Source of the DNA: Hyphomicrobium sp.
GTDB taxonomy: Bacteria > Pseudomonadota > Alphaproteobacteria > Rhizobiales > Hyphomicrobiaceae
Length of the DNA: 64,000 nucleotides
Direction: 5' to 3'
Assembly: GCF_019744875.1 (NCBI RefSeq)
Contig: NZ_JAIETU010000011.1
Location: 10,723 to 74,722 of the forward strand
Shown here piece after piece: positions 2,197 to 44,080 of the stretch; the first letter of the stretch is position 1; each line of letters opens with the position of its first letter. Both the position numbers and the translations under genes were made by a program. A model generated the notes under the pieces. That model ran no database searches and was not told the origin of the DNA. It was given only the letters and a program-made list of their open reading frames with translations.

Positions 2197-2463
2197 ATGA
2201 AGATTTCAGTCTCGTCGGGTTCCGCACTGGCTGCCGCTGCTGCTGCGCTTCTCCTCTCCGGCGCCGTCGTGGCCCCGAGCTTCGCTGCTGAAGACGCCAA
2301 GGGCCACTGCGTTGGCGGTAACGCCTGCAAGGGCACGAGCGCCTGCAAGACCGCGACCAACGCTTGCAAGGGTCAGAACGCCTGCAAGGGTCAAGGCATG
2401 AGCGAAACCTCGAAGGACGATTGCGCGAAGATCGACGGCGCGAAGTTCGAGCCCGCGAAGTAA
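2197..2463 (+). CDS. bufA: Secreted six-Cys repeat peptide, bufferin-type (BufA2-like) RiPP precursor
   Basis: Sec signal peptide (…VVAPSFA/AEDAKG). The core GHCVGGNACKGTSACKTATNACKGQNACKGQG…DDCAKIDGAKFEPAK has six Cys. It sits directly upstream of DUF692 and DUF2063 genes. Confidence 0.8.
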   Translation: MKISVSSGSALAAAAAALLLSGAVVAPSFAAEDAKGHCVGGNACKGTSACKTATNACKGQNACKGQGMSETSKDDCAKIDGAKFEPAK

Positions 2464-2477
2464 TCGCCAGAAACGGT

Positions 2478-2502
2478 GTCCGGCGGCGCGTTGCCGCCGG
2501 AC
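2478..2502 (+). terminator. Perfect 10-bp GC hairpin between precursor and MNIO gene (attenuator or partial terminator)
   Basis: GTCCGGCGGC-GCGTT-GCCGCCGGAC followed by TTCATTTG, 15 nt after the precursor stop codon. Confidence 0.55.
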
Positions 2503-2578
2503 TTCATTTGCCGGCTGTTACGTGACAGCTTGTTCGGGGCCGCCTGTTCGAAGATACGTGTTCGAAGGATGTGATGCG

Positions 2579-3460
2579 ATGCATGCCGAGACGCAGGGCC
2601 GCGAGAAAAGCACCGCCATACGCCGTGACAAGCCGCCGTATCTCGGCTTTGGGCTCGGTCTCCGGCCGCAGCATTATCAGGACATTTTCGATACGGCGCC
2701 GAACATCGACTGGTTCGAGGTGGTGTCGGAAAACTACATGGTGGCGGGCGGCAAGCCGCTGCAGATGCTCGACCGGATCCGCGCCGATTACCCCATCGTC
2801 ATGCACGGCGTGTCGCTGTCGATCGCATCGACCGCACCGGTGAATATGGACTATCTGCGGGATCTCAAGGCCCTCGCCCGGCGCAGCGAGCCGGTGTTCA
2901 TTTCCGATCACCTGTGCTGGACCGGTGTGCATGGCGTCAACCTGCACGATCTCCTGCCGGTGCCGTATACGCGCGAGGCGCTCGATCATGTCGTGGCGCG
3001 CGTGCAGCATGTGCAGGACTATCTGGGCCAGGCCATCGCGCTCGAAAACGTTTCGAGCTATGTGCAGTTCTCGCATTCGGAAATGAGCGAATGGGAGTTC
3101 ATCGCGGAGTTGACGAAGCGCACGGGCTGCTGGCTGGTGTTCGATGTCAACAACGTGTTCGTCTCTGCGTTCAATCACGAGTTCGACGCGCACAAGTTCA
3201 TTGCGGGTATCCCCAAGGATCGCATTGTTCAGTTCCATCTCGCGGGGCATGAACACAACATGAGCCACATCGTCGACACGCACGACGCGCTGGTGTGCGA
3301 CGAGGTGTGGGATCTCTACCGTTCGGCCGTGCGTCAGTTCGGGCAGGTATCGGCGATTATCGAGCGGGACGATCACATTCCGCCGCTCGCGGAGCTGGTG
3401 GCCGAACTCGACATCGCGCGCCGGGTCGCCGCCGAGACGCTCCGCGACGCCGCAGAGTAA
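2579..3460 (+). CDS. bufB: DUF692 / MNIO family (multinuclear non-heme iron oxidative) enzyme, BufB-like
   Basis: LGFGLGLRPQHY…IDWFEVVSENYM…ISDHLCW…ALENVSSY…HLAGH are hallmark DUF692 (UPF0276) motifs. ATG at 2579 is preferred over GTG at 2522. Confidence 0.9.
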   Translation: MHAETQGREKSTAIRRDKPPYLGFGLGLRPQHYQDIFDTAPNIDWFEVVSENYMVAGGKPLQMLDRIRADYPIVMHGVSLSIASTAPVNMDYLRDLKALARRSEPVFISDHLCWTGVHGVNLHDLLPVPYTREALDHVVARVQHVQDYLGQAIALENVSSYVQFSHSEMSEWEFIAELTKRTGCWLVFDVNNVFVSAFNHEFDAHKFIAGIPKDRIVQFHLAGHEHNMSHIVDTHDALVCDEVWDLYRSAVRQFGQVSAIIERDDHIPPLAELVAELDIARRVAAETLRDAAE

Positions 3461-3470
3461 TGGTGCCGTC

Positions 3471-4280
3471 ATGACAGGGCGCGCGCCCACGCTTGCAGAC
3501 GTGCAGAGCTTGTTTCAGGCGGCTGTCGTCGATGGGTCGGACGATGTGCTGGGGCTGATCCCCGGCAATTCCCGCACCAGCAGCGATGTGTTGTTCGGCG
3601 TTTACCGCCATGCCTACGTGGCGCGTCTGGTCGAGGTGGTGCAGAACGCGTATCCGATACTGGCTGCGCATATGGGAGACGCGCGTTTCAAGGACATGGC
3701 GCGCGCGTATGTGGCGCTTTATCCGTCTCGCCACACGAATGCGCGCTGGTATGCGTCGGACGTGCCGGACCTGCTCGGACGGCCCGAGTATGCAGAGACG
3801 CCGGAGCTGCGCGAGATTGCGTTGATCGAACGGCAGCTCGATCTTGCGTTCGATGCAGCCGACGGCGCGGTGCTTGACCTTGCGGCGCTGGGCCGCCATC
3901 AGCCGGAAACGTGGGGTTCACTTGTGTTTCGCCCGCACCCTTCTGCGGCGGTGCTCAGGCTTTCCACCAATGCTTATGAGATCTGGGCGGCGCTCAAGAA
4001 CGACGCCGTCGCGCCAGACCCGGCGCGGCTTGCGGATCCGCATGCGGTTCTGATCTGGCGGCGCGAGGGCGTGGCCACGTCGCGTGTGCTCGGGGCCGAG
4101 GAAGCGATGCTGTGGATCGAAGCTTCGCGCGGAAAGCCTTTTGGTGGGCTCGCGGAGATGGCGGCGGTATTCGCCGATGCGGACATGGCGGCGCTACGCG
4201 TGGCGCAGTACCTTCAGGGCTGGCTCGTGTCGGGATTAATCAGTGAGGCCGACGTCCACGAGCTGACGGCGACGTCTTAG
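3471..4280 (+). CDS. bufC: DUF2063 domain protein, MNIO partner (BufC-like)
   Basis: N-terminus LQSLFQAAVVDG…VYRHAYVARLVEVVQNAYP…FKDMARAYVALYPS is typical of DUF2063. It follows the DUF692 gene after 10 nt. Confidence 0.85.
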   Translation: MTGRAPTLADVQSLFQAAVVDGSDDVLGLIPGNSRTSSDVLFGVYRHAYVARLVEVVQNAYPILAAHMGDARFKDMARAYVALYPSRHTNARWYASDVPDLLGRPEYAETPELREIALIERQLDLAFDAADGAVLDLAALGRHQPETWGSLVFRPHPSAAVLRLSTNAYEIWAALKNDAVAPDPARLADPHAVLIWRREGVATSRVLGAEEAMLWIEASRGKPFGGLAEMAAVFADADMAALRVAQYLQGWLVSGLISEADVHELTATS

Positions 4281-5064: not shown

Positions 5065-5144
5065 CTGCGGTCTCCGTAGTAGGCTTCTCGACAGTCGCCC
5101 GTATCTCGAGGCGGGGTCAGGCGATATATAGCGACCCGTCACTG

Positions 5145-5171: not shown

Positions 5172-5199
5172 TCACTGGGTACAAGGCGAGCACGGATCA

Positions 5200-8866: not shown

Positions 8867-8870
8867 GCGG

Positions 8871-31447: not shown

Positions 31448-31473
31448 AGGACGGCACGAATGGAGCGTCGCAG

Positions 31474-32550: not shown

Positions 32551-32620
32551 ACAGAAACACGAAGGGGCTCTGAGCTGCGACGATCAGAGGCGTCAAGCTT
32601 CGCCCGATGCCGCAGCGCCA

Positions 32621-33643
32621 ATGGGCTCGACGGTTCGCATCGGCCTTTCCGGATGCGGCGGCGGCCTGGAGTCGATCTCGTCATCGAAGCTGCTGGATCT
32701 CGTGGAGAGGATCGAAGCCTGGGGGTTCGATGCGCTGTGGCTGAACGAGGAGCACTTCCAGGGCAGCATCGTTGAAGTCGAAGGGCGCCGATGCCATTCG
32801 CCTCTCATCCTTGCGAGCGCCGTTCTTGCGCGTACGCGCAAATTGCGCGTCGGCTTTTCCGTGCTGCTGCTTCCGCTTCATCACCCGGTGCGTCTCGCGG
32901 AGGAAATCGCGACACTCGACGTGCTGTCCGACGGCCGGGTCGATTTCGGCATTTCGCGAGGCGGCAATGGTCGTTATCTCGAAGTGTATGGTGTGGCTCC
33001 CGAAAGTGTGGAGGAGCGCTTCCAAACGACACTGGAGTTTTGCCTCCAGGCTTGGCAGCAAGGCACGATGACGTTCGGAGGGAATGCCTACTCGATCGAG
33101 CCGAAGCCGGTCCAGAAGCCTCACCCTCCTGTCTTCATCGGCACCTATTCCGACGAGATGGCGGGCTGGACGGCGCGCGAGGGCCACGCGCTGATATGCC
33201 ATGGCATCACGAGCATGGACAATCAACGCCGCCTGGTGAAGGCCTTCAGTGACGCCGGAGGCGACGTGCGACGCGTCCCGTTTGGACGATTTGTCTATGT
33301 GAGCGAGACGGACGCGAGTGCGCGCAAAGAGCTTTGGCCGACGGTGCTGAAATTGACGGAGAGGCTGAGAGGCTTCGGTCTGTTCAATCGTAAGGGTGTT
33401 GTCGCCGAGCGGGATCTCGATCCGGAGGTCTTCTTCAACGAGATGGTCATTGCGGGCAGCCCCGAGACGTGCGCGCGGAAGGTTCTCGCGCTCCATGACG
33501 AACTCGGGTTGACGTACCTCAATGCCTTGAGCGCGTTCTTCGGCTTTTTGCCGCTCGAACTTCTCGAAAAGTCGCTGGCTCTATTGGGAACTGAAGTCCG
33601 GCCGCGCGTGGAGCGCGTGCTGGCTGCCGGTCTCACATCATGA
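32621..33643 (+). CDS. Luciferase-like (LLM class) flavin-dependent oxidoreductase
   Basis: GFDALWLNEEHF…LAEEIATLDVLSDGRVDFGISRG…KPHPPVFIG. Sits between the binding-protein and permease genes. An alternative GVG-overlap start lies at 32540. Confidence 0.8.
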   Translation: MGSTVRIGLSGCGGGLESISSSKLLDLVERIEAWGFDALWLNEEHFQGSIVEVEGRRCHSPLILASAVLARTRKLRVGFSVLLLPLHHPVRLAEEIATLDVLSDGRVDFGISRGGNGRYLEVYGVAPESVEERFQTTLEFCLQAWQQGTMTFGGNAYSIEPKPVQKPHPPVFIGTYSDEMAGWTAREGHALICHGITSMDNQRRLVKAFSDAGGDVRRVPFGRFVYVSETDASARKELWPTVLKLTERLRGFGLFNRKGVVAERDLDPEVFFNEMVIAGSPETCARKVLALHDELGLTYLNALSAFFGFLPLELLEKSLALLGTEVRPRVERVLAAGLTS

Positions 33644-34659
33644 GACGGCCGCGTTTATTCTCAATCAGTGCGCTGCTGATGCTGGCGTTGCTTGGCATGA
33701 CGGCAGTGTCGCTCGCTGTTGGCCGTTATCCGCTGAGCCTCGCGGACATTTGGGAGTTCCTGCAGGCGTCGGTCGGCCTGCGCGATATTGGGTCAGAACG
33801 GTACGCGCTGCTCTACAACATCATCGTCGAAATTCGATTGCCGCGAGTTCTGGCGGCCATCCTGATCGGCGCGGCGCTGGCGATATCGGGCGCCTCATTC
33901 CAAGCCGTGTTTCGCAACCCACTGGTCTCTCCCGGCATCCTCGGCGTGCTCGGGGGTGCCAGCTTCGGAGCGGCGCTTGGCCTGCTGCTGTCGGATCAAT
34001 GGCTCGTGATTCAACTGCTTGCCTTCACGATGGCGCTTTTGGCAGTTGGGTTTGGGGTTTTTATCGCCAATCTCTTCGGGCCAGCGACGATGGTGACGCT
34101 TGTTCTCGGCGGCATCATCAGTGGTGCGCTGTTCACAGCCTTGTTGTCGATTACCAAGTACACGGCGGATCCCTACAATGAACTGCCGGCAATCGTTTAT
34201 TGGCTGATGGGTAGTCTCCAGGCCGTGCAGTTGACGCACATCACCGCGGTGGCAATCCCGATCATCGCCGGCATCGTGGTGCTGACGCTGCTCGGTCACG
34301 CACTCGATGCCCTGTCGATGGGTGACGACGAAGCCCGTTCACTGGGAGTTCCCGTCACGGCTGTTCGCTATGGTGTGATTATCATGGCTACTCTTATCTC
34401 CGCACTGTCGGTGTCGATCGCGGGGATCATCGGATGGGTTGGGCTCGTGGTCCCGAATTTCGCGCGTCTGGCGTTCGGGCCAGCGAACACCCGCCTTCTG
34501 CCGCTCAGCGCGCTTATTGGATCGTTGTTTCTGCTGAGCGCCGACCTCATCACGCGTGTCATAACTCCTGCAGAGATCCCCATCGGGATCGTTACAGAGC
34601 TGCTTGGCATTCCCGCATTCCTACTTGTCCTTGGAAGGGCTAGGCGGGCTTGGATCTAG
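33640..34659 (+). CDS. FecCD-family ABC permease (iron-chelate type)
   Basis: IVEIRLPRVLAAILIGAALAISGASFQAVFRNPLVSPGILG is a FecCD signature. Overlaps the LLM gene stop. Confidence 0.9.
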   Translation: MRRPRLFSISALLMLALLGMTAVSLAVGRYPLSLADIWEFLQASVGLRDIGSERYALLYNIIVEIRLPRVLAAILIGAALAISGASFQAVFRNPLVSPGILGVLGGASFGAALGLLLSDQWLVIQLLAFTMALLAVGFGVFIANLFGPATMVTLVLGGIISGALFTALLSITKYTADPYNELPAIVYWLMGSLQAVQLTHITAVAIPIIAGIVVLTLLGHALDALSMGDDEARSLGVPVTAVRYGVIIMATLISALSVSIAGIIGWVGLVVPNFARLAFGPANTRLLPLSALIGSLFLLSADLITRVITPAEIPIGIVTELLGIPAFLLVLGRARRAWI

Positions 34660-34679
34660 ATCAGGCAAAACCCATCCAG

Positions 34680-35480
34680 ATGGAGATGTCGCGAGGGCCT
34701 CATCTCGTGGCGCGCGACATACATTTTCGGATTGGCGCGCACAACATCCTGAAGGGCATCGATCTGGCCATTGGTCCCGGTGAGATCATGTCGCTCCTGG
34801 GTGCCAACGGAGCGGGCAAGACAACACTGCTGCGCGTATTGCTGGGGCTGATTTCGCCCGCCCAGGGACAGGTTCTTATCGACGACACCGCGACTTCGTC
34901 TCTGGCGCGACGAGACGTGGCGCAACGCATGGCCTATGTGCCGCAAGTCCACATGACGCCGTTCCCCTACACCGTCCGCGAAGTCGTCGCGATGGGACGG
35001 CTGTCGCGGAAGGGCTTGTTGGGCAATCCGTCCGATCGCGATCAAGAGGTCGTCCAAAGCGTTCTCGAGCAGATCGAGATTTCGCGCCTCGCCGATCGCG
35101 TCTACAGCGAGATTTCCGGAGGTGAGCGTCAGCTCACGCTCATCGCGCGGGCGCTCGCGCAGCAAGCGTCGATCCTCATCCTGGATGAGCCGATGGCTAA
35201 CCTCGACTTCGGCTATCAGACCTTGCTCAGCACGCATCTGAGAAAACTCGCCCAATCGGGTCACACGATCCTCATGAGCGGCCACGACCCGCAGCTCGCT
35301 TTTCATTCGTCGACGCGCATCGGGCTGCTGTTTGATGGCCGTCTCGAGCTGGACGGCAAGCCACAAGACGTTTTGACCGCAGGGACGATGCAAAGGCTTT
35401 ACGGGGTCGATGTCGACATCATCGCGCTCGCTGACGGCCGAAGAGCATTTTTCCCGGTTGTCAGCCCGGTTAGTCAGTGA
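34680..35480 (+). CDS. ABC transporter ATP-binding protein (FecE/FepC-like)
   Basis: Walker A GANGAGKTT, signature SGGERQ, Walker B ILILDEP. Confidence 0.9.
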   Translation: MEMSRGPHLVARDIHFRIGAHNILKGIDLAIGPGEIMSLLGANGAGKTTLLRVLLGLISPAQGQVLIDDTATSSLARRDVAQRMAYVPQVHMTPFPYTVREVVAMGRLSRKGLLGNPSDRDQEVVQSVLEQIEISRLADRVYSEISGGERQLTLIARALAQQASILILDEPMANLDFGYQTLLSTHLRKLAQSGHTILMSGHDPQLAFHSSTRIGLLFDGRLELDGKPQDVLTAGTMQRLYGVDVDIIALADGRRAFFPVVSPVSQ

Positions 35481-36263: not shown

Positions 36264-37157
36264 ATGGATGAGATCGATTGGAACCTTGTGCGGGCCTTCC
36301 ATGCGACGGCCGATGCCGGCTCGCTCTCGGCTGCGGCACGCAAGCTGGGGCTGACACAGCCGACGTTGTCGCGCCAGGTTGCGGCGTTGGAAGCAAAGCT
36401 CGGCGTCACTCTGTTCGAGAGAGTGGGCAAAAAGCTCATAGCGACCGACGTCGCCCTTGGACTTCTCGCGCATGCCCAGAACATGGCGACAGCGGCCGAC
36501 GCAATGGCGCTCGCGGCCGCTGGATCCGTTCAGGACGTGGAAGGTCGCGTCACCATTTCGGCAACGGATACGATCGCGGCGTATGTCCTGCCCGATATCG
36601 TCGCGCGCCTTCGGCGCGAGGCGCCTCAAGTCACTGTTGCCATTGTGGCCTCGAATTCATTCAGCGACCTGAGACGGCGCGAAGCCGACATCGCCATCCG
36701 TCATGTGCGTCCGACTGAGCCCGAGTTGATCGGCCGGCTGGTGCGCGAAACGACGGCTCACTTCTACGCCTCCGCCCGGTGGATTGCCGAGAACGGATTG
36801 CCGGCCTCGTTTGAGAGCATTTCCGCAGCGGATCTCGTGGCCTTCGAGCCTGTCGAGCAATTTGCGGAGCATCTGGCTCGCATCGGTATCACTGTCAGGC
36901 CCGATGAATTTCGCATGGTCTCGGAGAACGCGGTCGTGCTGTGGGAGATCGTTCGCAGCGGGCTTGGCGTTTGCATGATGCTTCGCGAAATCGCGGAGCG
37001 CACGCCGGGTATAGTCCGTCTGCTCCCCGATTTGCCCGGAGTTCCTGTGCCGATCTGGCTCGTCAGCCACCGCGAGCTGCGCACGAGCCGGCGCGTGCGC
37101 CTGGTCTTTCAGATCCTCGCCGAGGAACTGAGTGGCGAGGGCTGCGTTCCGTGTTGA
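36264..37157 (+). CDS. LysR-family transcriptional regulator
   Basis: HTH motif LVRAFHATADAGSLSAAARKLGLTQPTLSRQVAALE. Divergent from the methyltransferase. GCATAT-ACAA-ATATGC sits at the start codon. Confidence 0.9.
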   Translation: MDEIDWNLVRAFHATADAGSLSAAARKLGLTQPTLSRQVAALEAKLGVTLFERVGKKLIATDVALGLLAHAQNMATAADAMALAAAGSVQDVEGRVTISATDTIAAYVLPDIVARLRREAPQVTVAIVASNSFSDLRRREADIAIRHVRPTEPELIGRLVRETTAHFYASARWIAENGLPASFESISAADLVAFEPVEQFAEHLARIGITVRPDEFRMVSENAVVLWEIVRSGLGVCMMLREIAERTPGIVRLLPDLPGVPVPIWLVSHRELRTSRRVRLVFQILAEELSGEGCVPC

Positions 37158-37302
37158 GTGTGTGCCGGATGTCGCGGAACCGATACGTGTGTGAGGCAGT
37201 GTGGTAGCTGTGCGCCACCTCACTGTATGGATGACGCGACGCCCAACAAACGACACGATGCCGTGGCCGTTGGTGGCCAAGGCTGATGTCAATTTCGATC
37301 GA

Positions 37303-37755
37303 ATGCAAATGAGCCGTATCCGCAGACTGGCCGCGAGCTTTCTGATCGTTCTGCTGGTGCCATCTTTGGCGCTCGCGGCGACGCCGCTTCGCTATTGCAT
37401 CGGGCCGTCCGGTCATCAGGCGCTCGAGTTTGTCATCGACGGCATCTCCCACAGCGGCAATCACGCAAGCCACGGTCACTCATCGCAAGATGCTGACGAC
37501 TGCAGCGATGCCGGCAGCACGGCGTTCTTAGACGCCGAGAGGTGCACCGATACGGCGTTGATGGACACGGCTTCGGCGCCGCCCGTGGTGGACCTGAAGC
37601 ACCTCACAGTGTCGTCGCTGTTAGCGCAGCCGTTGTTCGTGATGCCCGCAGCGTCCGCCGACGATTTGCGCGGTCCTCCTATCGCCAATAGTCACAAGCC
37701 TCAGCTTGTCGATCCGCGCGTTGCGATCCGTCGCACGACGGTGCTGCTCATTTAG
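37303..37755 (+). CDS. Secreted Cys/His-rich protein of unknown function
   Basis: Signal peptide (…VPSLALA/ATP), then RYCIGPSGHQALEFVIDGISHSGNHASHGHSSQDADDC…ERC. No family recognised. A hairpin + TTTTCC follows at about 37774-37810. Confidence 0.55.
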   Translation: MQMSRIRRLAASFLIVLLVPSLALAATPLRYCIGPSGHQALEFVIDGISHSGNHASHGHSSQDADDCSDAGSTAFLDAERCTDTALMDTASAPPVVDLKHLTVSSLLAQPLFVMPAASADDLRGPPIANSHKPQLVDPRVAIRRTTVLLI

Positions 37756-38084
37756 AGCCATCGCGCCCTGCGCGTGCCTCACCTGCAATGCGGGTGAGCA
37801 CACTTTTCCAAACATCTGACAGCTCCGGCCTTGCCTTCGGCAATGCTCCAGCGTGCTCACGCTAACCGCCTCATTTCGATGAGTGGGGATCGATGAGTCG
37901 TGCGCGGATGCAAGTCGAGTTGGCCGCGCGGACGCTACGGACGTCACGGAGGCGGGCGCAAGCCCTGCCACCTCAAGGAACACGGCAATCGACAAGGAGG
38001 AAGCACGCCCTAAGCGACGAAACATTCATTGCGGCCGGTGAGGCCGTTCCAACCTCAACGCAGACCTAAACCTGGAGATGAAAA

Positions 38085-38345
38085 ATGAAATCAGTTGTTC
38101 GTATCGCAGCACTTGCTCTGAGCCTCGGCGCGCTGTCGCTTCCCGCGTTTTCGGCCGATGATCACGGGCATTGCTCGGGCGCAAATGTCTGCGCCGGTGA
38201 CGCTGCTTGTGAAAAGCAGGGCTACAAGGAGCTGACGAAGGACGAGTGCTCCAAGATCGACGGCGCCAAGTTCGAGGCTTCCTCGCATGAGGGCGAAGGC
38301 CACAAGGACGGCGATCACTCCAAGCACGACCACGACAAAAAGTAA
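38085..38345 (+). CDS. Orphan paralog of the bufferin-type precursor: four Cys, His-rich C-terminal tail
   Basis: Signal peptide (…SLPAFS/ADD). GHCSGANVCAGDAACEKQGYKELTKDECSKIDGAKFE aligns with 2197-2463. Tail is SSHEGEGHKDGDHSKHDHDKK. GGAG lies 8 nt upstream. Confidence 0.75.
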   Translation: MKSVVRIAALALSLGALSLPAFSADDHGHCSGANVCAGDAACEKQGYKELTKDECSKIDGAKFEASSHEGEGHKDGDHSKHDHDKK

Positions 38346-38353
38346 CGGACAGG

Positions 38354-38384
38354 GCCGCGCGGCATTCTTCGGATGCCGCGCGGC
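38354..38384 (+). terminator. Perfect 12-bp GC hairpin after the orphan precursor (no U-tract)
   Basis: GCCGCGCGGCAT-TCTTCGG-ATGCCGCGCGGC, 9 nt after the stop and 38 nt before the next ORF. Confidence 0.5.
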
Positions 38385-38422
38385 TGCCCGTTCCGTTGGG
38401 CAACCCATAGGGAGTACGACCC

Positions 38423-38683
38423 ATGCAAAAACTAGTCTGCCTTCTATTTGCAGGCTTCGTCTTTTCTCTCAGTCCGGCATCGGCGAATGTCGGCTCAGGC
38501 CTGCTCGCCAAGGCGTCCAGCCTCGACCGCGGTGTCACCGAAGGGCAGGTGCTTGAGATACGCCATCGCCACCGGCACTGGCGGCGGCATCATCACCATC
38601 GGAGATGGGGGCACCGCCATCATCGTCGGCACTGGGGGTTCAAGCTTCACCGGCGCCATCATCATCATCACCGCTATCATTGA
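38423..38683 (+). CDS. Secreted peptide with extreme His/Arg/Trp-rich C-terminal tail
   Basis: Signal peptide MQKLVCLLFAGFVFSLSPASA/NV. Tail is RHRHRHWRRHHHHRRWGHRHHRRHWGFKLHRRHHHHHRYH. GGGAG lies 8 nt upstream and a hairpin follows the stop. The tail frame is ambiguous (see findings). Confidence 0.45.
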   Translation: MQKLVCLLFAGFVFSLSPASANVGSGLLAKASSLDRGVTEGQVLEIRHRHRHWRRHHHHRRWGHRHHRRHWGFKLHRRHHHHHRYH

Positions 38684-38769
38684 CAGCGGTGGGCGCGGCG
38701 GTTGGGAAGTCCCGCCGCCGCGCTTGTCATATCCGCTGCGATAGCGGGCGCGTCCGGTGCTTCGGCGAT

Positions 38770-39156
38770 TTAAGGTCCGGTCGGCCTCGTTGCGCGGCCT
38801 TCGGAGCCTTCGCTGACGGTTAGAAACATGAGCTTCACCGGCGAGAGCGTGCGCTGGGAATGCCAGACGCCGGCCGGAATTTGAACCACGTCGCCTTTGC
38901 GTGCCGTCTTCTGAATCTCGCCGTCGGGCGTGAGCTGGGTAAGCTCCGTTTCGCCCTCGAGGATGAACAGCATCTCGTCGCCTCCGGCATGGCGCTCCCA
39001 GCCTGTCTGGCCGTGGAAATGCACGAGGCCCATGAGACAGCCTTGGAACGTGCCGAGCACACGCATGCAGTCGATGGCATCTCCCTCGGACATATCTGGC
39101 GTGACGTGAGCGACAGGCATGGCGTCCAGCAGGGTAGAGACGTCGTGGATGTTCAT
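38770..39156 (-). CDS. Cupin-domain protein
   Basis: HFHGQTGWERHAGGDEMLFILEGE…GDVVQIPAGVWH. ATGA overlap with the upstream MFS gene. The rest of track ORF 38770..40257 is out of frame. Confidence 0.75.
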   Translation of the reverse strand: MNIHDVSTLLDAMPVAHVTPDMSEGDAIDCMRVLGTFQGCLMGLVHFHGQTGWERHAGGDEMLFILEGETELTQLTPDGEIQKTARKGDVVQIPAGVWHSQRTLSPVKLMFLTVSEGSEGRATRPTGP

Positions 39157-40460
39157 GCTCTCGATCCTGTTTCTTCTTTTGCATCCAACTCGAGACTGGG
39201 CGTCGACGGCCGTAGAATGGCCAGCGCCAGAACGACTGTGCTGACAGCAATGGTCAGGGCAAATCCGGCGGTGTATCCGATCTGGGCGGCCAGAGCCGTC
39301 GCCAGGCTCGCGGCCATGATCTCGCCGAGCACGTTGGCGCTCTTGAAAATTGTCACGTCCGTGCCCGCCTGCTCGCCTCGACGGGCGAACAGCATCAGCA
39401 CCGTGTAGACCGCAACGGAGGCGAGCCCCATTCCTGTGCTGCCTACGATCCGGAGCGCCGCGGCCGTGACGATGTCGGGGCGCGTGTTCGTCCATGACAG
39501 CGCGAGCCACCCGGCAGACGACGCCATCAGTAGGACAAGCCCTATGAGGAGCGACGGCCAGGCGCCGACGCGCGCGACGAGCCACGCCGCGGCGCCGCAC
39601 CCCAGCACGATCATGGCGCCCATGCTGAGGGTGTCGATAGCGCCGATTTCGCTCGGGGCCCAGCCCTTGTCGACGAGATAGAGGCGAAGGAGCGAGCCAT
39701 CTCCGGAGTGGGAGGCGGCATAGAGGGTCGCGACGATGAGCACGAAAAGGAAGTGAGGGCGCTTGACCGCTGCCAGGAGCGTGGCCCGCTTTCGCGGGGC
39801 GGGCGCGGCACTCTCGGTTTCGCGCCAGACAACAGCAGGGATCGCACATAGAACCAAGAGGCCGACGATGCCGAGGAGGCATCCGCGCAAGCCGATTGCG
39901 TCGACCGTCATCAGGACTCCGCCGCCACCGAGAAGCACGCCCGCCGCCATGCCGCCCACGCTGTAGGCGTTGGCGAGCGCGAGGTGGCGGCCTTCCAAGC
40001 GCTCTGCGGCGAGCCCATCGGTGGCGATGTCCTGTGTGGCGGCAAACAGCGACGCCAACCCTAGAAGGATGAGGCTGGAGGTTGCCCCGCTGCTGTCGGC
40101 GCCGGTCAGGATCAAGGCACCTATGGCTACGAGCACGAGGAGCTGCTGCAAGAGCAACCACGTGCGCCGGCGTCCGAGCGCCGGCCACCAAAGGCTGTCC
40201 ACGAGGGGGCTCCACAGGAACTTGAGCATCCACGGCAGACCGAGCAGCGGTACCCACGCGAGGAGCGACAGCTCAACGCCTGCGGCTCGAAGCAGCACGG
40301 GGTACGAGCCGAAGATGAGCCCCAGCGGAAGCCCCTGGGCGAAATAGAGGGCGCCGAGCAGCAGCAGGATGAAGGCAGGGCTGTCCGTTCGTCCCTGCCT
40401 CGTCGCGCTGTGTGCAGTTTCAGTGCCGTGCGACGTGTCTTGGCCGAGTGAGGTGTGCAC
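39153..40460 (-). CDS. AmpG/RhtX-FptX-like MFS permease (probable siderophore importer)
   Basis: LYFAQGLPLGLIFGSYPVLLR…LLGLPWMLKFLWSPLVD. GTG at 40460 with GAGGAGG 9 nt upstream is preferred over ATG 40538. Confidence 0.65.
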   Translation of the reverse strand: MHTSLGQDTSHGTETAHSATRQGRTDSPAFILLLLGALYFAQGLPLGLIFGSYPVLLRAAGVELSLLAWVPLLGLPWMLKFLWSPLVDSLWWPALGRRRTWLLLQQLLVLVAIGALILTGADSSGATSSLILLGLASLFAATQDIATDGLAAERLEGRHLALANAYSVGGMAAGVLLGGGGVLMTVDAIGLRGCLLGIVGLLVLCAIPAVVWRETESAAPAPRKRATLLAAVKRPHFLFVLIVATLYAASHSGDGSLLRLYLVDKGWAPSEIGAIDTLSMGAMIVLGCGAAAWLVARVGAWPSLLIGLVLLMASSAGWLALSWTNTRPDIVTAAALRIVGSTGMGLASVAVYTVLMLFARRGEQAGTDVTIFKSANVLGEIMAASLATALAAQIGYTAGFALTIAVSTVVLALAILRPSTPSLELDAKEETGSRA

Positions 40461-40482
40461 CTTGTCTTGCCTCCTCAATCGG

Positions 40483-42714
40483 TCAGAACGAGACCTTGGT
40501 GCGCACGCCGTAGGTCGCCGGGTCGCCGAGCGCGCCATAGGCGCCCACGCCGCCGGTTCCGGCGAAGTCGTAGGAGTTCACCACGTAGCGCTCGTTGAGG
40601 ATGTTGCGGCCGAAGAAGGCGATGTCCATGTCGCCGTACTTGAAGCCGAGCGTCGCGTTGAGAAGCGTGACGCCCTTCTGCTTCGAGGCATTGGCTTCGT
40701 CGAGGTAGTAGTCACCCAGCGTGCGGGCATCGACAAGCAGGTAGCCGCCCCAGTCGGCCCGGTACTCGAAGCCATAGTTCGTTGTGAACGAGGGAATGAA
40801 GCTGACCTCGTTGCCGCTGAAATCGGCGTAGTCATTCACGAACTCGCCGAAAGTCGCATGCGTCACGCCGAGCCCGCCGAAGAGGCGGAGCTGGGACGTC
40901 ATCTGCAAGCTCGCCTCCAGCTCGCCGCCGTAGCTTTCGACGCGCTCAGCATTATTGACGCCGAACTCCGACGGGCTGAACTGGTTCAGCACCTGATAGT
41001 TCTCGGTGTCGGAATAGAAGAGCGAGCCGTTGAGGGCGAGGAAGCGTCCGAACGGCCGGCTCTTGAAGCCGATCTCGTAGTTGTCCGAGGTTTCTTCGTC
41101 GAAGCGGAACTCGTTGATGTCGGTCAGCGCGCGGTCGGCGATGAAGCCGCCCGGCTTGAAGCCGCGCGCATACTTCGCATAGGCCGTGAAGTTCGAGGTC
41201 GGCGCATAGAGCAGCGCAATCGAGGGCAGAACCTTCGCATAGTCCTTCTCGGCTTCTGCGATAAAGGGAGCTGGATGCGCGTTTTCTCCCTCGCGCCCTG
41301 CCCACTCGTAGCGCATGCCGGGGACAATGGTGAAGCCGCCGCCGAGCCCGTAGCGCAGCTCGCCGAAGACGGCGACGTCGTCGCTGGTCGTCTTGGCGTG
41401 CCGCAACGGCATGCCGGGAATTTCGATGTCGGGATAGAGCAGTGTGCCGCCGTCGAAATCCATGACGGTGTGCGCGGCGAAGACGCCGGCCGACCACTGA
41501 AGCTGCGCCGAGGGATCGTTCGACGTGAGGCGTACTTCCTGCGTCAGCGAGCGGACCTCCTCTTCCGAGTAGCCGATGTAACGCCACATCGGATCGGGAA
41601 TGGCCGTCTGGTCGCCGTCGTTGTGGAAGTCCCATGTCGAGCGGCGGTTTGCCGTGACCGACAGGATGTCGAACGTGTCGAAGCGGCTTTTGATGCGCAG
41701 GGCCTGCAGGTCCTGGCCGATGCGCTCCTTGCCGGGATCGTTATAGGTGACGTCGAACGGGGCGGTGGCAAGCTGCGCGAACGGAATGAACGGATCGCTC
41801 TGGTCGTCAAAGCGCTCGTGCTGCAGGATGAAATCGATGGTCGTGCGGCTTGTGGGCACGATGGTGAGCTTCGCCCGGCCGCCGTAGGATTCCTTGTCGC
41901 CGTAGGGCTCGTTCAGGGCGGTATTGTCATAGAAGCCGTCGCGCTTCTGGCCGATGAAGTCAGCGGTCAGGAAGGCGGAGCTTGAGCCGAGCGGCGTCGA
42001 GAAGCCTGCGCCGGCCTCGTACGCGTCGTAGTTTCCGGCCGATCCTGTGACGTAGCCGGTTGGCTTGTCGGTTGGGCCGCCCGTCTGGATGTCGATGACG
42101 CCTGCCGGGCGGCTGAACCCGAACGATGTGCTCTGCGGTCCCTTGAGCACGTTGATCTGGTCAACGCGCGTAAACATTGAGGCGCGGGCCAGTGTCGTCA
42201 GCGCGGGGATGTCATCCACGTAGTAGCCGACGCCGGGAACGACGCCAGGGGACGACTGGTAGCCAAGCTCGTGCACGCCGCGGATCGAGAAGGTCGGCAT
42301 GCGGTTGCCGCCGGAGTCGAAGCCGGTGACGTTCGGGAACGATTGGGCAAGATCGCGCGCGGTGCTGAGCCCGCGTGTTGCGACCTCGTCTCCGGTCATG
42401 ACGGAGACGCCCGAAGGAACATTCGCAAACTCGGCAGTGGCCTGCGAAATGCCATCCGCGGGTGGTTTAGCGGCGGGCGGAGGCTGGGGCTGCGGCGCGG
42501 TCGCAGCGACTGGCTGCTCAAGTGCCTTCTTTTGCGCCGCGGGTTTCTTCGCCTTCTTGGCGGTGACGCTCAGAGGCGGCAGATCATACGTCTCGTTGGC
42601 GTCCGCCGGCTTGGCGGCCTGCTGGGCCACAGCTTCTCCGGCGGCCACGACGGCGCAAGAAACGGCATATGCCAGAACGCAGGCCATTCGGCCCGATGCG
42701 AGAAAAGCGGTCAT
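40483..42714 (-). CDS. TonB-dependent siderophore receptor
   Basis: Signal peptide, Pro/Ala-rich linker, plug (SGVSVMTGDE…FSIRG), barrel, C-terminal YGVRTKVSF. Confidence 0.9.
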   Translation of the reverse strand: MTAFLASGRMACVLAYAVSCAVVAAGEAVAQQAAKPADANETYDLPPLSVTAKKAKKPAAQKKALEQPVAATAPQPQPPPAAKPPADGISQATAEFANVPSGVSVMTGDEVATRGLSTARDLAQSFPNVTGFDSGGNRMPTFSIRGVHELGYQSSPGVVPGVGYYVDDIPALTTLARASMFTRVDQINVLKGPQSTSFGFSRPAGVIDIQTGGPTDKPTGYVTGSAGNYDAYEAGAGFSTPLGSSSAFLTADFIGQKRDGFYDNTALNEPYGDKESYGGRAKLTIVPTSRTTIDFILQHERFDDQSDPFIPFAQLATAPFDVTYNDPGKERIGQDLQALRIKSRFDTFDILSVTANRRSTWDFHNDGDQTAIPDPMWRYIGYSEEEVRSLTQEVRLTSNDPSAQLQWSAGVFAAHTVMDFDGGTLLYPDIEIPGMPLRHAKTTSDDVAVFGELRYGLGGGFTIVPGMRYEWAGREGENAHPAPFIAEAEKDYAKVLPSIALLYAPTSNFTAYAKYARGFKPGGFIADRALTDINEFRFDEETSDNYEIGFKSRPFGRFLALNGSLFYSDTENYQVLNQFSPSEFGVNNAERVESYGGELEASLQMTSQLRLFGGLGVTHATFGEFVNDYADFSGNEVSFIPSFTTNYGFEYRADWGGYLLVDARTLGDYYLDEANASKQKGVTLLNATLGFKYGDMDIAFFGRNILNERYVVNSYDFAGTGGVGAYGALGDPATYGVRTKVSF

Positions 42715-42856
42715 TCAGTAGCCCCCACGGCGATCAAACTCATGCTGGGATAGGAGGGCAGCAGGAGATCGATAACAATCGCCGCGGCTTTGGGGATTCC
42801 GTCTTTGTCTTTGGCTTTTCGCGTCGAGCGAAGGGGGCAACGGATGAGACCGGCGG

Positions 42857-43699: not shown

Positions 43700-43739
43700 A
43701 TCTGGTTCCTACACCTGCAAACCTCACGCTTACATAATA

Positions 43740-43756
43740 TTGACCGCAATAGTCAA
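43740..43756. promoter_or_regulatory. Inverted repeat TTGAC-N7-GTCAA (contains TGA-N9-TCA)
   Basis: TTGACCGCAATAGTCAA, 41-57 nt upstream of the AraC ATG (43699). Confidence 0.35.
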
Positions 43757-43876
43757 GTTTAAGCCCGCGGCTGGCGCGCGACCGCAGTCGGGTGTGGCCG
43801 TCCGGGCGCCGGTTGGTCTGTCGGAGCTTTGGAAATTGGAATCTGGGTCGTCGGAGCGCCGGTTTGGCAGCACGCG

Positions 43877-44080
43877 CTAGGGATTTGGCCCTTGGGCCGC
43901 GCTGGGCCGGCGGGCGGAGTTCGGCCAGAGACCGTAGGCGCAAACGGCCACAGGCACGGCGAGAAGCGCCCAGGATATCGCGTCCCAACCGGCGTCGCCC
44001 GTCAGTCCAATGAGCAGACCCGCGATCGTCGCGACTGCCATGACGGCGGGATAGGTCCAAATGCCGGAGCGCCTTCGCAC
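43877..44080 (-). CDS. Small two-TM membrane protein
   Basis: GTG start overlaps the PepSY gene's TAG stop by 1 nt. Two hydrophobic helices. Confidence 0.45.
   Translation of the reverse strand: MRRRSGIWTYPAVMAVATIAGLLIGLTGDAGWDAISWALLAVPVAVCAYGLWPNSARRPSAAQGPNP

What the first reader, a model, noticed from the sequence alone, without database searches (positions are those of the whole stretch)
37303..38683. Compact locus of three secreted Cys/His-rich small proteins next to a LysR regulator and siderophore-uptake genes: candidate undescribed periplasmic metal-handling module
Three consecutive plus-strand genes each encode a signal-peptide-bearing small protein rich in metal ligands. The first (37303-37755) carries RYCIGPSGHQALEF…HSGNHASHGHSSQDADDC…ERC. 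The second is the bufferin-like peptide with a His tail, and the third is the His/Arg/Trp peptide. Hairpins separate them (about 37774-37810 with TTTTCC, and 38354-38384). A LysR gene lies upstream (36264-37157). A cupin/MFS/TonB-receptor operon converges from the right. None of the three matches a family I can name with confidence, apart from the paralogy to the RiPP precursor. The co-location suggests a shared function in periplasmic metal sequestration or delivery.
Basis: inference. Interest (0 to 1): 0.75.

Follow-up and report, generated by a model that had tools for sequence, protein, structure and literature searches.

The report
Detached metal-resistance peptide cassette in Hyphomicrobium
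Three small secreted Cys/His-rich proteins are real, conserved genes, but they are a cut-off copy of an uncharacterised helper cassette that normally travels with zinc/cobalt/cadmium-type efflux pumps, not partners of the neighbouring LysR or iron-uptake genes.

Summary
All three ORFs are real. Each has a Sec-type signal peptide, conserved homologues and dN/dS well below 1. The window comes from a Hyphomicrobium sp.

The link to LysR and the siderophore genes is positional only. DNA homology to related loci covers just about 37140/37170-38721. Elsewhere the same genes form a cassette: ORF1, a His/Gly/Lys peptide, ORF2, ORF3, a Tyr/His peptide. That cassette lies beside a CzcN-like methyltransferase, a CDF transporter, a CsoR/RcnR-family repressor and czcCBA, or beside a P1B-4 ATPase. 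The window copy has lost two of the five peptide genes and has no czc genes within 64 kb.

- **ORF1** belongs to an uncurated family of about 145 aa (130 cluster representatives). In 20 of 25 loci a paralogue sits 76-125 nt upstream of czcC, the position of CzcI. No homology to CzcI or DUF2946 was detected.
- **ORF2** is a shortened four-Cys relative of the bufferin-2 precursor BufA2 with a His-rich tail. It is never next to an MNIO enzyme and always follows an ORF1-type gene. A complete bufA2-bufB-bufC operon lies 34 kb away.
- **ORF3** is a sequence-conserved His/Arg/Trp peptide that gene callers usually miss.

Best reading: a periplasmic metal-binding and sensing accessory set.

The parts
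37139..38721 (+). Segment homologous to the peptide cassette of czc-type metal-resistance islands. This is the whole extent of what is shared with the island loci.
   Evidence: blastn of the window against L001 and L007 gives 79-85% identity over 37139/37170-37925 and 37944/37947-38716/38721. Nothing is shared to the left (lysR) or to the right (cupin).
37240..37262 (+). Conserved 23-nt motif CGCCCAAyAAACGACAyGATGCC, 47 nt upstream of the ORF1 start at 37309. Candidate promoter or operator of ORF1.
   Evidence: It occurs once in each locus that holds the region upstream of an ORF1 orthologue, always in front of that orthologue, with 0-3 mismatches. This holds between loci whose flanking DNA is otherwise unalignable. 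It is absent upstream of the czcI-position paralogues. The reading frames downstream of its internal ATG differ between loci, so the conservation is at the DNA or RNA level. No Rfam match.
37303..37755 (+). ORF1: 150-aa Sec-exported protein, with probable true start at 37309. Member of an uncurated family of about 145 aa. Features: signal peptide, RYCxGPSGHQAxEFV, a His-rich stretch, CxD, and the C-terminus DPR..RRTxVLLI.
   Evidence: 14 homologues at 53-97% identity. A profile search found 130 cluster representatives, most of about 135-170 aa. Residues invariant across the superfamily are C32, E42, C81, D83 and L148; G37 and H38 are nearly invariant. dN/dS 0.14-0.33. No Pfam, NCBIfam or PDB match. 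The AF2 model is of low confidence (pLDDT 67): a hairpin at 29-43 plus a strand at 82-85, the rest of the mature chain mostly without regular structure.
37774..37801 (+). GC hairpin 19 nt after the ORF1 stop, followed by CACACUUUUCC. Terminator-like or attenuator-like.
   Evidence: -24.3 kcal/mol for the folded 66-nt segment 37760-37825, z = -3.2. A hairpin is present at the same place in all ORF1 orthologues, with different stem sequences. The simple terminator scan did not call it.
37947..38015 (+). Remnant of the 3' end of the deleted His/Gly/Lys-rich secreted peptide gene ('HGK'). Pseudogene fragment.
   Evidence: L001 positions 8626-8906, which hold most of the HGK gene (8685-8972), have no counterpart in the window. 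Homology resumes at L001 8906, which corresponds to window 37947. No chromosomal-type locus has an HGK match by HMM search, while all island loci with sequence there do. The end coordinate is read from the sequence.
38085..38345 (+). ORF2: 86-aa Sec-exported, four-Cys relative of the bufferin-2 precursor BufA2, with the C-terminal tail SSHEGEGHKDGDHSKHDHDKK.
   Evidence: tblastn to the window's own bufA2 gives E = 3e-11 at 43.5% identity. NCBIfam BufA2 scores 27.1 bits against a cut-off of 60. The family alignment has invariant HGHC, C36, C42 and C55 and a conserved His tail. Relative to BufA2 it lacks the block containing two Cys repeats. dN/dS 0.04-0.14. The AF2 core (residues 27-65) has pLDDT 82-86, with C30 on strand 1 and C55 on a short helix. 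A GGAG Shine-Dalgarno lies 8 nt upstream.
38352..38384 (+). Strong GC hairpin between ORF2 and ORF3, with no U-tract.
   Evidence: -39.2 kcal/mol for the folded 58-nt segment 38343-38400, z = -5.9; none of 200 shuffles folds as well.
38423..38683 (+). ORF3: 86-aa Sec-exported His/Arg/Trp peptide. An accessory member of the cassette, absent in some lineages.
   Evidence: 10 homologues, nine of them strong (E <= 2.5e-14) and mostly 84-90 aa. Invariant SLSPASA|NV and a conserved residue order HRHWRRHHHHRRWGHRHHRRHW. dN/dS 0-0.27. GGGAG Shine-Dalgarno. The exact protein is not in the 15-billion-protein collection, and gene callers often call the opposite strand instead. Absent from L004, L006/L026 and L043-L047.
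2197..4280 (+). Complete bufferin-2 operon: bufA2 2197-2463, MNIO bufB about 2579-3460, DUF2063 bufC 3471-4280. It lies behind an ECF sigma factor (743-1291) and an RskA-type anti-sigma factor. Possible maturase acting in trans on ORF2. This link is inferred, not shown.
   Evidence: NCBIfam BufA2 86.4 bits (cut-off 60) and MNIO_BufB 380.7 bits (cut-off 310). Pfam MbnB_TglH_ChrH, DUF2063, Sigma70_r2/r4 and RskA_C.

Best explanation
The locus is a chromosomal, detached and partly deleted copy of a cassette of small Sec-exported metal-ligand proteins. In Hyphomicrobium this cassette normally accompanies czc-type divalent-cation efflux determinants: CzcCBA, a CDF transporter, a P1B-4 ATPase, a CzcN-like methyltransferase and a CsoR/RcnR-family repressor.

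**Shown**
- The genes are real and under constraint.
- ORF1 plus ORF2 form the invariant core. ORF3 and two further His-rich peptides are optional.
- The LysR and iron-uptake genes are only insertion neighbours.

**Inferred mechanism**
- All three products act in the periplasm on metal cations.
- ORF2 folds like a bufferin. C30 and C55 would form a disulfide, and C36 and C42 would be central. It would bind metal through the HGH motif, the central Cys and the His/Asp tail. The central Cys may or may not be converted to thiooxazoles by the BufB/BufC pair encoded 34 kb away.
- ORF3 would be a polyhistidine sponge.
- ORF1 would be the sensing or modulating member. It has a Cys/His/Glu...Cys/Asp site on a small sheet, followed by a long linker and an invariant C-terminal RTVVLLI. 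It would play for the peptide cassette the role its paralogues play in front of czcCBA, analogous to CzcI.

Which metal is handled is not settled. The efflux context points to Zn, Co, Cd or Ni. The bufferin ancestry and the C-H-C fingerprint of the repressor leave Cu open.
For: **Reality of the genes.** Homologues, conservation and dN/dS support all three.

**Context.**
- Full cassettes beside PEMT, CDF, a Trns_repr_metal regulator and czcCBA: L001, L004, L005 (H. zavarzinii), L007, L019-L021, L026/L027, L047 and L048.
- An ORF1-like/ORF2-like pair directly upstream of an SPC...HEGST (P1B-4 type) ATPase and next to czcBA: L045/L046.
- A pair next to PEMT: L043.
- 20 of 25 superfamily members sit 76-125 nt upstream of czcC.

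**Detachment.** The homology limits and the two deletions are defined. No czc gene occurs in the window.

**ORF2 and bufferin.**. The bufferin papers describe the CysI-to-last-Cys disulfide, the modified central Cys, and stand-alone precursor genes (PMC11626156, PMC12452194).

**CzcI.** It is a periplasmic protein that damps CzcCBA activity (PMC10127602).
Against: - No experiment and no expression data support any of this. The function rests on composition and gene neighbourhood.
- ORF1 shows no detectable homology to CzcI (hhalign probability 1-11%; the NCBIfam CzcI models do not match). The analogy is therefore positional and architectural only.
- The window copy lacks the pump genes, the regulator and two of the five peptides, so it may act differently or hardly at all.
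- ORF3 is so Arg-rich that metal binding is not the only plausible role.
- No MNIO gene lies near any ORF2 homologue (0 of 45 loci, 485 kb). ORF2 fails the BufA2 model cut-off.
- The AF2 models are of modest confidence.
Confidence: 0.6

Rival explanations
1. ORF1-family genes are cis-acting exported leader ORFs, in the manner of CutF, CopL or CruR, rather than stable periplasmic proteins. Metal binding by the emerging nascent chain would change how long the ribosome dwells on the invariant C-terminal codons. That in turn would control the RNA structure just downstream, and so the expression of the next gene: czcC for the paralogues, the peptide genes for ORF1. This reading can coexist with the best explanation for ORF2 and ORF3.
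For: - The superfamily has a Sec signal, Cys/His ligands, a length-conserved linker of about 67 residues between CxD and the end, and an almost invariant extreme C-terminus.
- The intergenic distance to czcC is constant at 76-85 nt in 15 loci.
- In all 15 loci the czcC Shine-Dalgarno is predicted to pair (P = 0.60-0.99) with the first 27 nt after the upstream stop codon. Different arm sequences are used in different clades, for example UCUCCC with GGGAGA in L023 and CCCGAAUC with GAUUCGGG in L033-L039.
- Every ORF1 orthologue has a hairpin right after its stop codon.
- The CutF mechanism and the inclusion of CzcI among CutF-like proteins are described in 10.1101/2022.11.11.516240.
Against: - There is no Pfam DUF2946 match, no CxxxC motif and no proline-rich C-terminus.
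- The duplex statistics are modest (z from +0.8 to -2.9, mean -1.7), and many of the sequences are close relatives.
- RNAalifold on the MAFFT alignment gave no consensus structure.
- A helix that hides the Shine-Dalgarno also fits plain translational coupling without any sensing.
- In the window the next gene is 329 nt away and the hairpin looks like a terminator.
- Whole-protein dN/dS of 0.14-0.33 suggests that more than the two ends is under constraint.
Confidence: 0.25
2. ORF2 is a true RiPP precursor. BufB/BufC (2579-4280) would convert C36 and C42 to 5-thiooxazoles in trans, making a copper-binding bufferin with an added His tail. On this reading the module is about copper.
For: - ORF2 is clearly homologous to BufA2, including the C-terminal CxKIDGAKFE block.
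- Its four Cys align with CysI, II, III and VI of BufA2. This reproduces the pattern of bufferin 1, with outer Cys in a disulfide and inner Cys modified (PMC11626156).
- A complete bufA2BC operon is in the same window.
- Stand-alone precursor genes are known. No genome with Buf2 precursors lacked an MNIO gene (PMC12452194).
- The island repressor has a CsoR-like C-H-C fingerprint and hits RicR best, though below the cut-off (fingerprint read from the sequence).
Against: - ORF2 is never next to an MNIO or DUF2063 gene in 45 loci.
- It always travels with Zn/Co/Cd-type efflux genes.
- It scores below the BufA2 cut-off and has lost two Cys repeats.
- Whether island-bearing genomes such as H. zavarzinii have a BufB could not be tested here.
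Confidence: 0.3
3. One reading: a LysR-controlled module that works with the flanking siderophore and TonB uptake genes in iron or metal delivery.
For: - lysR ends 145 nt upstream of ORF1 on the same strand, and two TonB-receptor clusters flank the locus.
- The arrangement is stable in at least 9 contigs of this Hyphomicrobium lineage.
Against: - The same genes occur in about ten other lineages without LysR, cupin, MFS or receptor genes, and always with efflux genes.
- The shared DNA starts at the end of lysR and stops after ORF3.
- ORF1 brings its own conserved upstream motif.
Confidence: 0.05
4. The chromosomal copy is a decaying leftover of an old island insertion with no present function.
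For: - Two of five cassette genes have been deleted: HGK in all chromosomal copies, and YH in the window, L009, L011 and L015.
- The pump, the CDF, the methyltransferase and the repressor are absent from the window.
Against: - All three ORFs are intact in every chromosomal copy.
- Among chromosomal copies at 96-97% DNA identity, ORF2 has 0 non-synonymous changes, and ORF1 and ORF3 have dN/dS of 0-0.33. The counts are small.
- The upstream motif and the Shine-Dalgarno sites are kept.
Confidence: 0.1

Closest known systems
Bufferin 2 precursors (BufA2, BUF_6/12Cys, NCBIfam NF050166) of the MNIO-modified copper-binding RiPPs
   Same: - Sec signal peptide and small size.
- Significant sequence similarity to the window's own BufA2 (E = 3e-11), including GHC and CxKIDGAKFE.
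- The predicted strand/short-helix core places the first and last Cys where bufferins have their disulfide (PMC11626156).
   Different: - Four Cys instead of six or twelve.
- 27 bits against a cut-off of 60.
- An added His/Asp/Lys tail.
- Never adjacent to MNIO or DUF2063 genes in 45 loci.
- Always preceded by an ORF1-type gene and embedded in Zn/Co/Cd-type efflux islands rather than a SigF-type copper regulon.
CzcI of Cupriavidus metallidurans (NCBIfam NF045614), the periplasmic protein encoded upstream of czcCBA that damps pump activity
   Same: - Small Sec-exported protein.
- 'RYC' directly after the signal peptide, then a His-rich stretch and a later Cys motif.
- Paralogues of ORF1 occupy exactly the CzcI position, upstream of czcC in 20 of 25 loci (PMC10127602).
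- Like czcI, ORF1 is followed by a hairpin that could give a monocistronic message with read-through.
   Different: - No detectable sequence homology (hhalign probability 1-11%; the CzcI models do not match).
- Longer (about 145 aa against 115 aa), with a different, invariant C-terminus.
- The window's ORF1 has no czc gene next to it.
CutF / CopL / CruR (DUF2946): exported upstream ORFs that sense periplasmic copper and control the downstream gene in cis
   Same: - Sec signal, Cys/His ligand motif and a conserved C-terminal motif.
- Position immediately upstream of metal-homeostasis genes, with intergenic regions under 100 nt.
- A predicted stem that hides the downstream ribosome-binding site, shown here for the paralogues (10.1101/2022.11.11.516240).
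   Different: - No DUF2946 match.
- No CxxxC motif.
- The C-terminus is hydrophobic (RTVVLLI), not proline-rich.
- For the window's ORF1 the next gene is 329 nt away.
Histidine-rich periplasmic metal sponges and chaperones of resistance islands (SilE/PcoE, CzcE, CusF). This comparison is from general knowledge and was not tested.
   Same: Small secreted proteins rich in metal ligands, encoded beside RND metal pumps.
   Different: - No sequence relationship: ORF3 and the HGK and YH peptides match no Pfam or NCBIfam model.
- ORF3 is strongly cationic (14 Arg in 65 residues) and has conserved Trp.

Membership tests
Bufferin 2 precursor (BufA2 / BUF_6/12Cys) | Score at or above the curated cut-off of NCBIfam NF050166 (60 bits) | tested here: not met
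   ORF2 scores 27.1 bits. The window's genuine BufA2 scores 86.4 bits.
Bufferin 2 precursor (BufA2 / BUF_6/12Cys) | Six or twelve conserved Cys in the core | tested here: not met
   ORF2 has four invariant Cys (C30, C36, C42, C55). The block holding two Cys repeats is missing in all 25 family members aligned.
Bufferin 2 precursor (BufA2 / BUF_6/12Cys) | Sec signal peptide and sequence homology of the core | tested here: met
   tblastn to the window's bufA2 gives E = 3.5e-11 at 43.5% identity over 62 aa. The signal peptide was read from the sequence.
Bufferin 2 precursor (BufA2 / BUF_6/12Cys) | Gene linked to an MNIO (BufB) and a DUF2063 (BufC) gene | tested here: not met
   No MNIO or DUF2063 hit in 45 loci (485 kb) around ORF2 homologues. 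A bufA2BC operon exists 34 kb away in the window.
Bufferin 2 precursor (BufA2 / BUF_6/12Cys) | Central Cys converted to 5-thiooxazoles; copper binding | not testable with these tools
   This needs mass spectrometry, NMR and metal-binding assays.
Bufferin 2 precursor (BufA2 / BUF_6/12Cys) | Small folded core with a disulfide between the first strand and a short helix | tested here: inconclusive
   The AF2 core has pLDDT 82-86, with C30 on strand 27-31 and C55 on helix 52-56. Coordinates could not be inspected, and no bufferin structure was available for comparison.
CzcI (NCBIfam NF045614 / NF045615) | Match to the curated CzcI models or detectable homology to CH34 CzcI | tested here: not met
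   No hit for ORF1, for 46 superfamily members or for the czcI-position paralogue. CH34 CzcI itself scores 172.5 bits. hhalign probability is 1.1% and 11%.
CzcI (NCBIfam NF045614 / NF045615) | Gene immediately upstream of czcC-czcB-czcA | tested here: not met
   The window has no czc genes. The feature is met for paralogues of the same superfamily in 20 of 25 loci.
CzcI (NCBIfam NF045614 / NF045615) | Periplasmic protein that lowers CzcCBA activity | not testable with these tools
   This needs genetics and transport assays (PMC10127602 describes the property).
CutF-like / DUF2946 (Pfam PF11162) | Pfam DUF2946 match, CxxxC motif, proline-rich C-terminus | tested here: not met
   No Pfam hit at E <= 1 for ORF1 or at E <= 0.01 for 46 members. 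The motifs are C-x5-H...E and CxD, and the C-terminus is RTVVLLI.
CutF-like / DUF2946 (Pfam PF11162) | Short intergenic region with a stem that shields the downstream ribosome-binding site | tested here: inconclusive
   Predicted in 15 of 15 czcI-position paralogues, but the statistics are modest and RNAalifold found no consensus. It does not apply to the window's ORF1, which has a 329-nt gap and a terminator-like hairpin.
The ORF1 superfamily itself (uncurated) | About 145 aa; signal peptide; C-x-G-x-x-G-H-x-A-x-E; CxD; C-terminal (D)P(R)...RTxVLL(I) | tested here: met
   ORF1 has all of these features. The profile search recovers 130 representatives, most of about 135-170 aa.

The most novel reading that the evidence does not exclude
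The ORF1 superfamily is a second, independently evolved class of Sec-exported nascent-chain metal sensors, convergent with CutF/DUF2946. Metal-dependent folding of its Cys/His/Glu-Cys/Asp site outside SecY would act on the invariant C-terminal RTVVLLI inside the ribosome. This would open or close the RNA helix just after its stop codon and so gate czcCBA, or, for ORF1, the peptide cassette. ORF2 would show the bufferin scaffold recruited into Zn/Co/Cd resistance. It would act either without MNIO chemistry or as a substrate modified in trans, so that ORF1 and ORF2 form a fixed sensor-effector pair.
Probability: 0.2. Interest if true: 0.8.

Novelty: new variant of a known kind. Interest (0 to 1): 0.55.

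Why it matters
- Czc-type pumps are the textbook heavy-metal resistance systems, yet their small accessory proteins are poorly understood. CzcI is the only studied occupant of the slot in front of czcC.
- This work finds an unannotated family of 130 cluster representatives, every checked member labelled 'hypothetical protein' or unnamed. It fills the same slot without detectable homology to CzcI, and has a predicted helix that ties its translation to that of czcC.
- It also finds a bufferin-derived protein that has left its MNIO operon and always travels with one branch of this family. This bears on an open question in the bufferin field: whether stand-alone precursors are modified in trans or act unmodified.
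- Both points can be tested directly in culturable Hyphomicrobium strains such as H. zavarzinii ATCC 27496.
- On a practical level, ORF3-type genes are systematically missed by gene callers.

Tried and rejected
- **Plasmid collection.** tblastn of ORF1 and of the czcI-position paralogue found no match.
- **GTDB species representatives.** The scan gave only two Hyphomicrobium loci because the search patterns were strict.
- **PDB.** The sequence profile search and Foldseek with the ORF1 model gave nothing meaningful. The best hits had E = 0.46 and E = 4, and the model was of low confidence.
- **Rfam.** Nothing over 37000-38900.
- **Sigma-70 promoter scan.** No sites. The terminator scan did not call the two hairpins.
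- **RNAalifold.** No consensus on the MAFFT alignment of the czcI-like/czcC spacers, because the two clades place the arms in different columns. I used per-sequence pairing probabilities and duplex shuffles instead.
- **N-terminal extension of ORF1.** Gene callers start ORF1 at 37258 or 37201. I rejected this because the frames upstream of the MS..RR start differ between orthologues.
- **The 23-nt motif as a CsoR/RcnR operator.** I set this aside because the motif has no G/C-tract palindrome (by eye).
- **A shared ECF promoter with bufA2.** I considered this, given that TGAAAC-N16-CGTAAT lies upstream of bufA2. I found no convincing counterpart at ORF1 or ORF2.


Full report
**1.

- ORF1: 37303-37755, 150 aa.
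- ORF2: 38085-38345, 86 aa.
- ORF3: 38423-38683, 86 aa.

Each begins with a typical Sec signal: a basic N-region, a hydrophobic core and an AXA-like cleavage site. I read these from the sequence, since no predictor was available. The mature products carry the following ligand counts:
- ORF1: 3 Cys and 7 His.
- ORF2: 4 Cys and 7 His.
- ORF3: 18 His, 14 Arg and 3 Trp in 65 residues.

All three are real genes.
- ORF1 has 14 homologues at 53-97% identity, mostly of the same length.
- ORF2 has 41 homologues, mostly 80-89 aa, with four invariant Cys and a conserved His tail.
- ORF3 has nine strong homologues and one marginal one. The order of residues in the His/Arg/Trp block is conserved, not just the composition.
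- Nei-Gojobori dN/dS in the named frames is 0.14-0.33 for ORF1, 0.04-0.14 for ORF2 and 0-0.27 for ORF3.

The two hairpins exist: -24.3 kcal/mol for the folded segment around the first (z = -3.2) and -39.2 kcal/mol for the segment around the second (z = -5.9). The neighbours are as described. Source names attached to identical proteins show that the organism is a Hyphomicrobium sp. ORF1 and ORF2 are labelled 'hypothetical protein'. The exact ORF3 protein is absent from the 15-billion-protein collection, because callers often take the opposite strand.

**2. The trio is a fragment of a larger cassette**

Fetching contigs that encode ORF1 or ORF2 homologues gave two kinds of locus.

*Chromosomal loci (L009-L016).* These are 96-100% identical to the window and share lysR, the trio and the cupin-MFS-receptor-AraC genes.

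*Island loci.* These are L001, L004, L005 (Hyphomicrobium zavarzinii ATCC 27496), L007, L019-L021, L026/L027, L047 and L048. They share nothing with the window except the small genes. Their gene order is as follows:
1. ORF1.
2. A secreted His/Gly/Lys peptide, here called HGK.
3. ORF2.
4. ORF3.
5. A secreted Tyr/His peptide, here called YH.
6. On the opposite strand, a CzcN-like PEMT/ICMT methyltransferase, in most cases a CDF transporter, and a CsoR/RcnR-family repressor.
7. A paralogue of ORF1.
8. czcC-czcB-czcA.

Several islands sit among genes of integrative elements.

blastn limits the shared DNA to window 37139/37170-37925 and 37944/37947-38721, at 79-85% identity. Three conclusions follow:
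- lysR, whose stop codon ends at 37157, and the cupin gene are insertion neighbours.
- The HGK gene has been deleted, leaving a 3' remnant at about 37947-38015.
- The YH gene is still present as a 114-aa ORF in L010, L012, L013, L014 and L016. It has been deleted in the window, L009, L011 and L015.

The window has no czc gene within its 64 kb.

**3. The invariant core is the ORF1-ORF2 pair**

HMMs for the five peptides were run on all ORFs of all loci. An ORF1-type gene followed by an ORF2-type gene occurs in every locus. HGK, ORF3 and YH come and go.

The pair also occurs in two other settings:
- Directly upstream of a P-type ATPase with SPC and HEGST motifs and beside czcBA, in L045/L046 (Hyphomicrobium sp. 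GCA_019753045.1). From my own knowledge these motifs mark the P1B-4 Co/Zn type.
- Next to the PEMT gene alone, in L043/L044.

It confirms co-conservation and moves the functional association from iron uptake to cation efflux.

**4. ORF1**

Neither ORF1 nor 46 diverse relatives match any Pfam-A or NCBIfam model. No solved structure matches by sequence or by fold.

A profile search of 1.84 billion representatives found 130 clusters at E <= 1e-3, most of about 135-170 aa. Of the 10 further clusters whose members were looked up, only three carry a source name, all 'hypothetical protein' and the organism-named ones from Hyphomicrobium.

The family signature is as follows:
- A signal peptide.
- PLRxCxGxDGH(R/Q)A(I/L)EF(V).
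- An HH-rich stretch.
- CxD.
- A poorly conserved linker of conserved length.
- An almost invariant extreme C-terminus, (D)P(R)L...RTVVLL(I).
- Invariant residues, in ORF1 numbering: C32, E42, C81, D83 and L148.

The AF2 model has pLDDT 67. It shows only a hairpin (29-43) and a strand (82-85); the rest of the mature chain is mostly without regular structure.

In 20 of 25 further loci a family member lies 76-125 nt upstream of czcC. That is the slot of CzcI in Cupriavidus metallidurans. I fetched CH34 czcI. It shares the signal peptide, 'RYC' right after it, a His-rich stretch and a later Cys motif. Homology is not detectable, however. hhalign gives probabilities of 1% and 11%. The NCBIfam CzcI models hit CzcI at 172 bits but hit neither ORF1 nor the paralogue. 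CzcI is described as a periplasmic protein that damps CzcCBA (PMC10127602). A bioinformatic study groups it with the CutF-like DUF2946 exported sensors (10.1101/2022.11.11.516240).

**5. Cis features**

- *Upstream motif.* A 23-nt motif, CGCCCAAyAAACGACAyGATGCC, occurs once in each locus that holds the region upstream of an ORF1 orthologue, and it is not found before the czcI-position paralogues. In the window it lies at 37240-37262, 47 nt upstream of the start at 37309.
- *Hairpin after ORF1.* Each ORF1 orthologue is followed by a GC hairpin whose sequence differs between lineages.
- *Spacer before czcC.* For the czcI-position paralogues the spacer to czcC is 76-85 nt in 15 loci. In all 15 the czcC Shine-Dalgarno is predicted to pair (P = 0.60-0.99) with the first 27 nt after the upstream stop codon. 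The arm sequences differ between clades.
- *Limits of that evidence.* Duplex shuffles give a mean z of -1.7, many sequences are related, and RNAalifold on the MAFFT alignment failed. I therefore treat this as suggestive evidence for translational coupling. It is compatible with, but does not show, a CutF-like sensing mechanism.

**6. ORF2**

ORF2 is homologous to the window's own BufA2 (E = 3e-11). It scores 27 bits against a cut-off of 60, whereas the real BufA2 scores 86 bits.

The alignment shows that ORF2 lacks the block with two Cys repeats. It keeps the counterparts of CysI, II, III and VI, and adds the tail SSHEGEGHKDGDHSKHDHDKK. In bufferins the outer Cys form a disulfide and the inner Cys become thiooxazoles (PMC11626156). 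The AF2 core of ORF2 has pLDDT 82-86 and places C30 on the first strand and C55 on a short helix, which matches that description.

No MNIO or DUF2063 gene lies in any of 45 loci around ORF2 homologues. The window does hold a complete sigma/anti-sigma-bufA2-bufB-bufC cluster at 743-4280. The bufferin authors note that stand-alone precursors exist and may be modified in trans or not at all (PMC12452194). I could not test whether island-bearing genomes have a BufB.

**7. Mechanism, with confidence levels**

*Shown:*
- The gene set is exported, constrained and co-inherited.
- Its habitual company is Zn/Co/Cd-type efflux machinery.

*Inferred:*
- About 0.6: the products handle metal cations in the periplasm, with ORF2 and ORF3 as binders or buffers and ORF1 as a sensing or modulating member.
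- About 0.25, not exclusive of the above: the ORF1 family acts in cis as an exported leader.
- About 0.3: ORF2 is matured by BufBC.

The metal handled is open. The efflux context suggests Zn, Co, Cd or Ni. The bufferin ancestry and the C33-H58-C62 fingerprint of the island repressor keep Cu possible. That repressor's best NCBIfam hit is RicR, below the cut-off.

The window copy has lost the pump, the regulator and two peptides. It may be a reduced stand-alone buffer or, less likely given the intact ORFs and low dN/dS, a relic.

**8. Novelty and score**

The kind of system is known: small periplasmic accessory proteins of metal-resistance determinants, and bufferin-type proteins. The particular families are not curated or described in the libraries and papers I could search. 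The fixed ORF1-ORF2 pairing and the predicted helix hiding the Shine-Dalgarno in front of czcC also appear to be new.

I rate it a new variant of a known kind, with interest 0.55. Its interpretation is partly supported: the idea of a metal-handling module stands, and the LysR/siderophore link does not.

Noticed in passing
window 743-4280: A complete bufferin-2 gene cluster: ECF sigma factor (743-1291), RskA-type anti-sigma factor (about 1288-2004), bufA2 (2197-2463, six Cys), MNIO bufB (about 2579-3460) and DUF2063 bufC (3471-4280). An ECF-like TGAAAC-N16-CGTAAT lies upstream of bufA2 at about 2079-2106. The anti-sigma factor is RskA-type, not the NrsF type described for Caulobacter.
   Followed up: partly
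window 4324-5193 (minus strand): A 289-aa ORF right after the bufferin cluster looks like an Fe/Mn superoxide dismutase (DVWEHAYYLKYQN motif). It has an N-terminal twin-arginine-like signal (RRSFLRTAGAIALM...), which would make it an exported SOD. This was read from the translation only and not scanned against any library.
   Followed up: no
L001 11808-11885, and the same spacer in L004, L007, L019-L021, L023, L025 and L033-L039: In 15 loci the czcC Shine-Dalgarno is predicted to pair with the sequence just after the stop codon of the upstream ORF1-family gene. The spacer length is constant at 76-85 nt, an inner GC hairpin is present, and the arm sequences differ between clades. This suggests translational coupling or sensing in front of czcCBA.
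   Followed up: partly
window 37240-37262; one copy in each related locus that holds the region upstream of an ORF1 orthologue: A 23-nt motif, CGCCCAAyAAACGACAyGATGCC, is conserved upstream of every ORF1 orthologue, even where the flanking DNA cannot be aligned. It has no Rfam match and no obvious palindrome. Its function is unknown.
   Followed up: partly
window 38423-38683; L009 10411-10596: ORF3-type genes are usually not called. The exact protein is absent from the protein collection, and several assemblies annotate a 54-61 aa (in one case 90 aa) ORF on the opposite strand instead.
   Followed up: yes
L001 7427-7849 (minus strand), L004 7528-7960 (minus strand), L007 9422-9940 (minus strand): Many islands carry a third ORF1-family paralogue, transcribed divergently from ORF1. 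One island can therefore hold three members of the family.
   Followed up: partly
L045/L046 7214-10914: In Hyphomicrobium sp. GCA_019753045.1 the ORF1-like/ORF2-like pair sits directly in front of a heavy-metal P-type ATPase with SPC and HEGST motifs (P1B-4 type, like CzcP). It is also next to czcBA, with IS630-type transposase genes nearby.
   Followed up: partly
window 29078-35480 and 38770-47504: The trio lies between two iron-uptake style clusters. On the left are a TonB receptor, a periplasmic binding protein, a luciferase-like monooxygenase, FecCD and an ABC ATPase. On the right are cupin, MFS, a TonB receptor and AraC, then PepSY_TM, a second TonB receptor and a second AraC. The luciferase-like gene inside the ABC operon is unusual.
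   Followed up: no
L047 11578-11832: Another small secreted basic peptide, rich in His, Arg, Ser and Gly (MRMIQKVCIAALL...SNRGHGNSHASNGSHAERGSHFRK...), lies in a rearranged island. These islands seem to collect such peptides.
   Followed up: no
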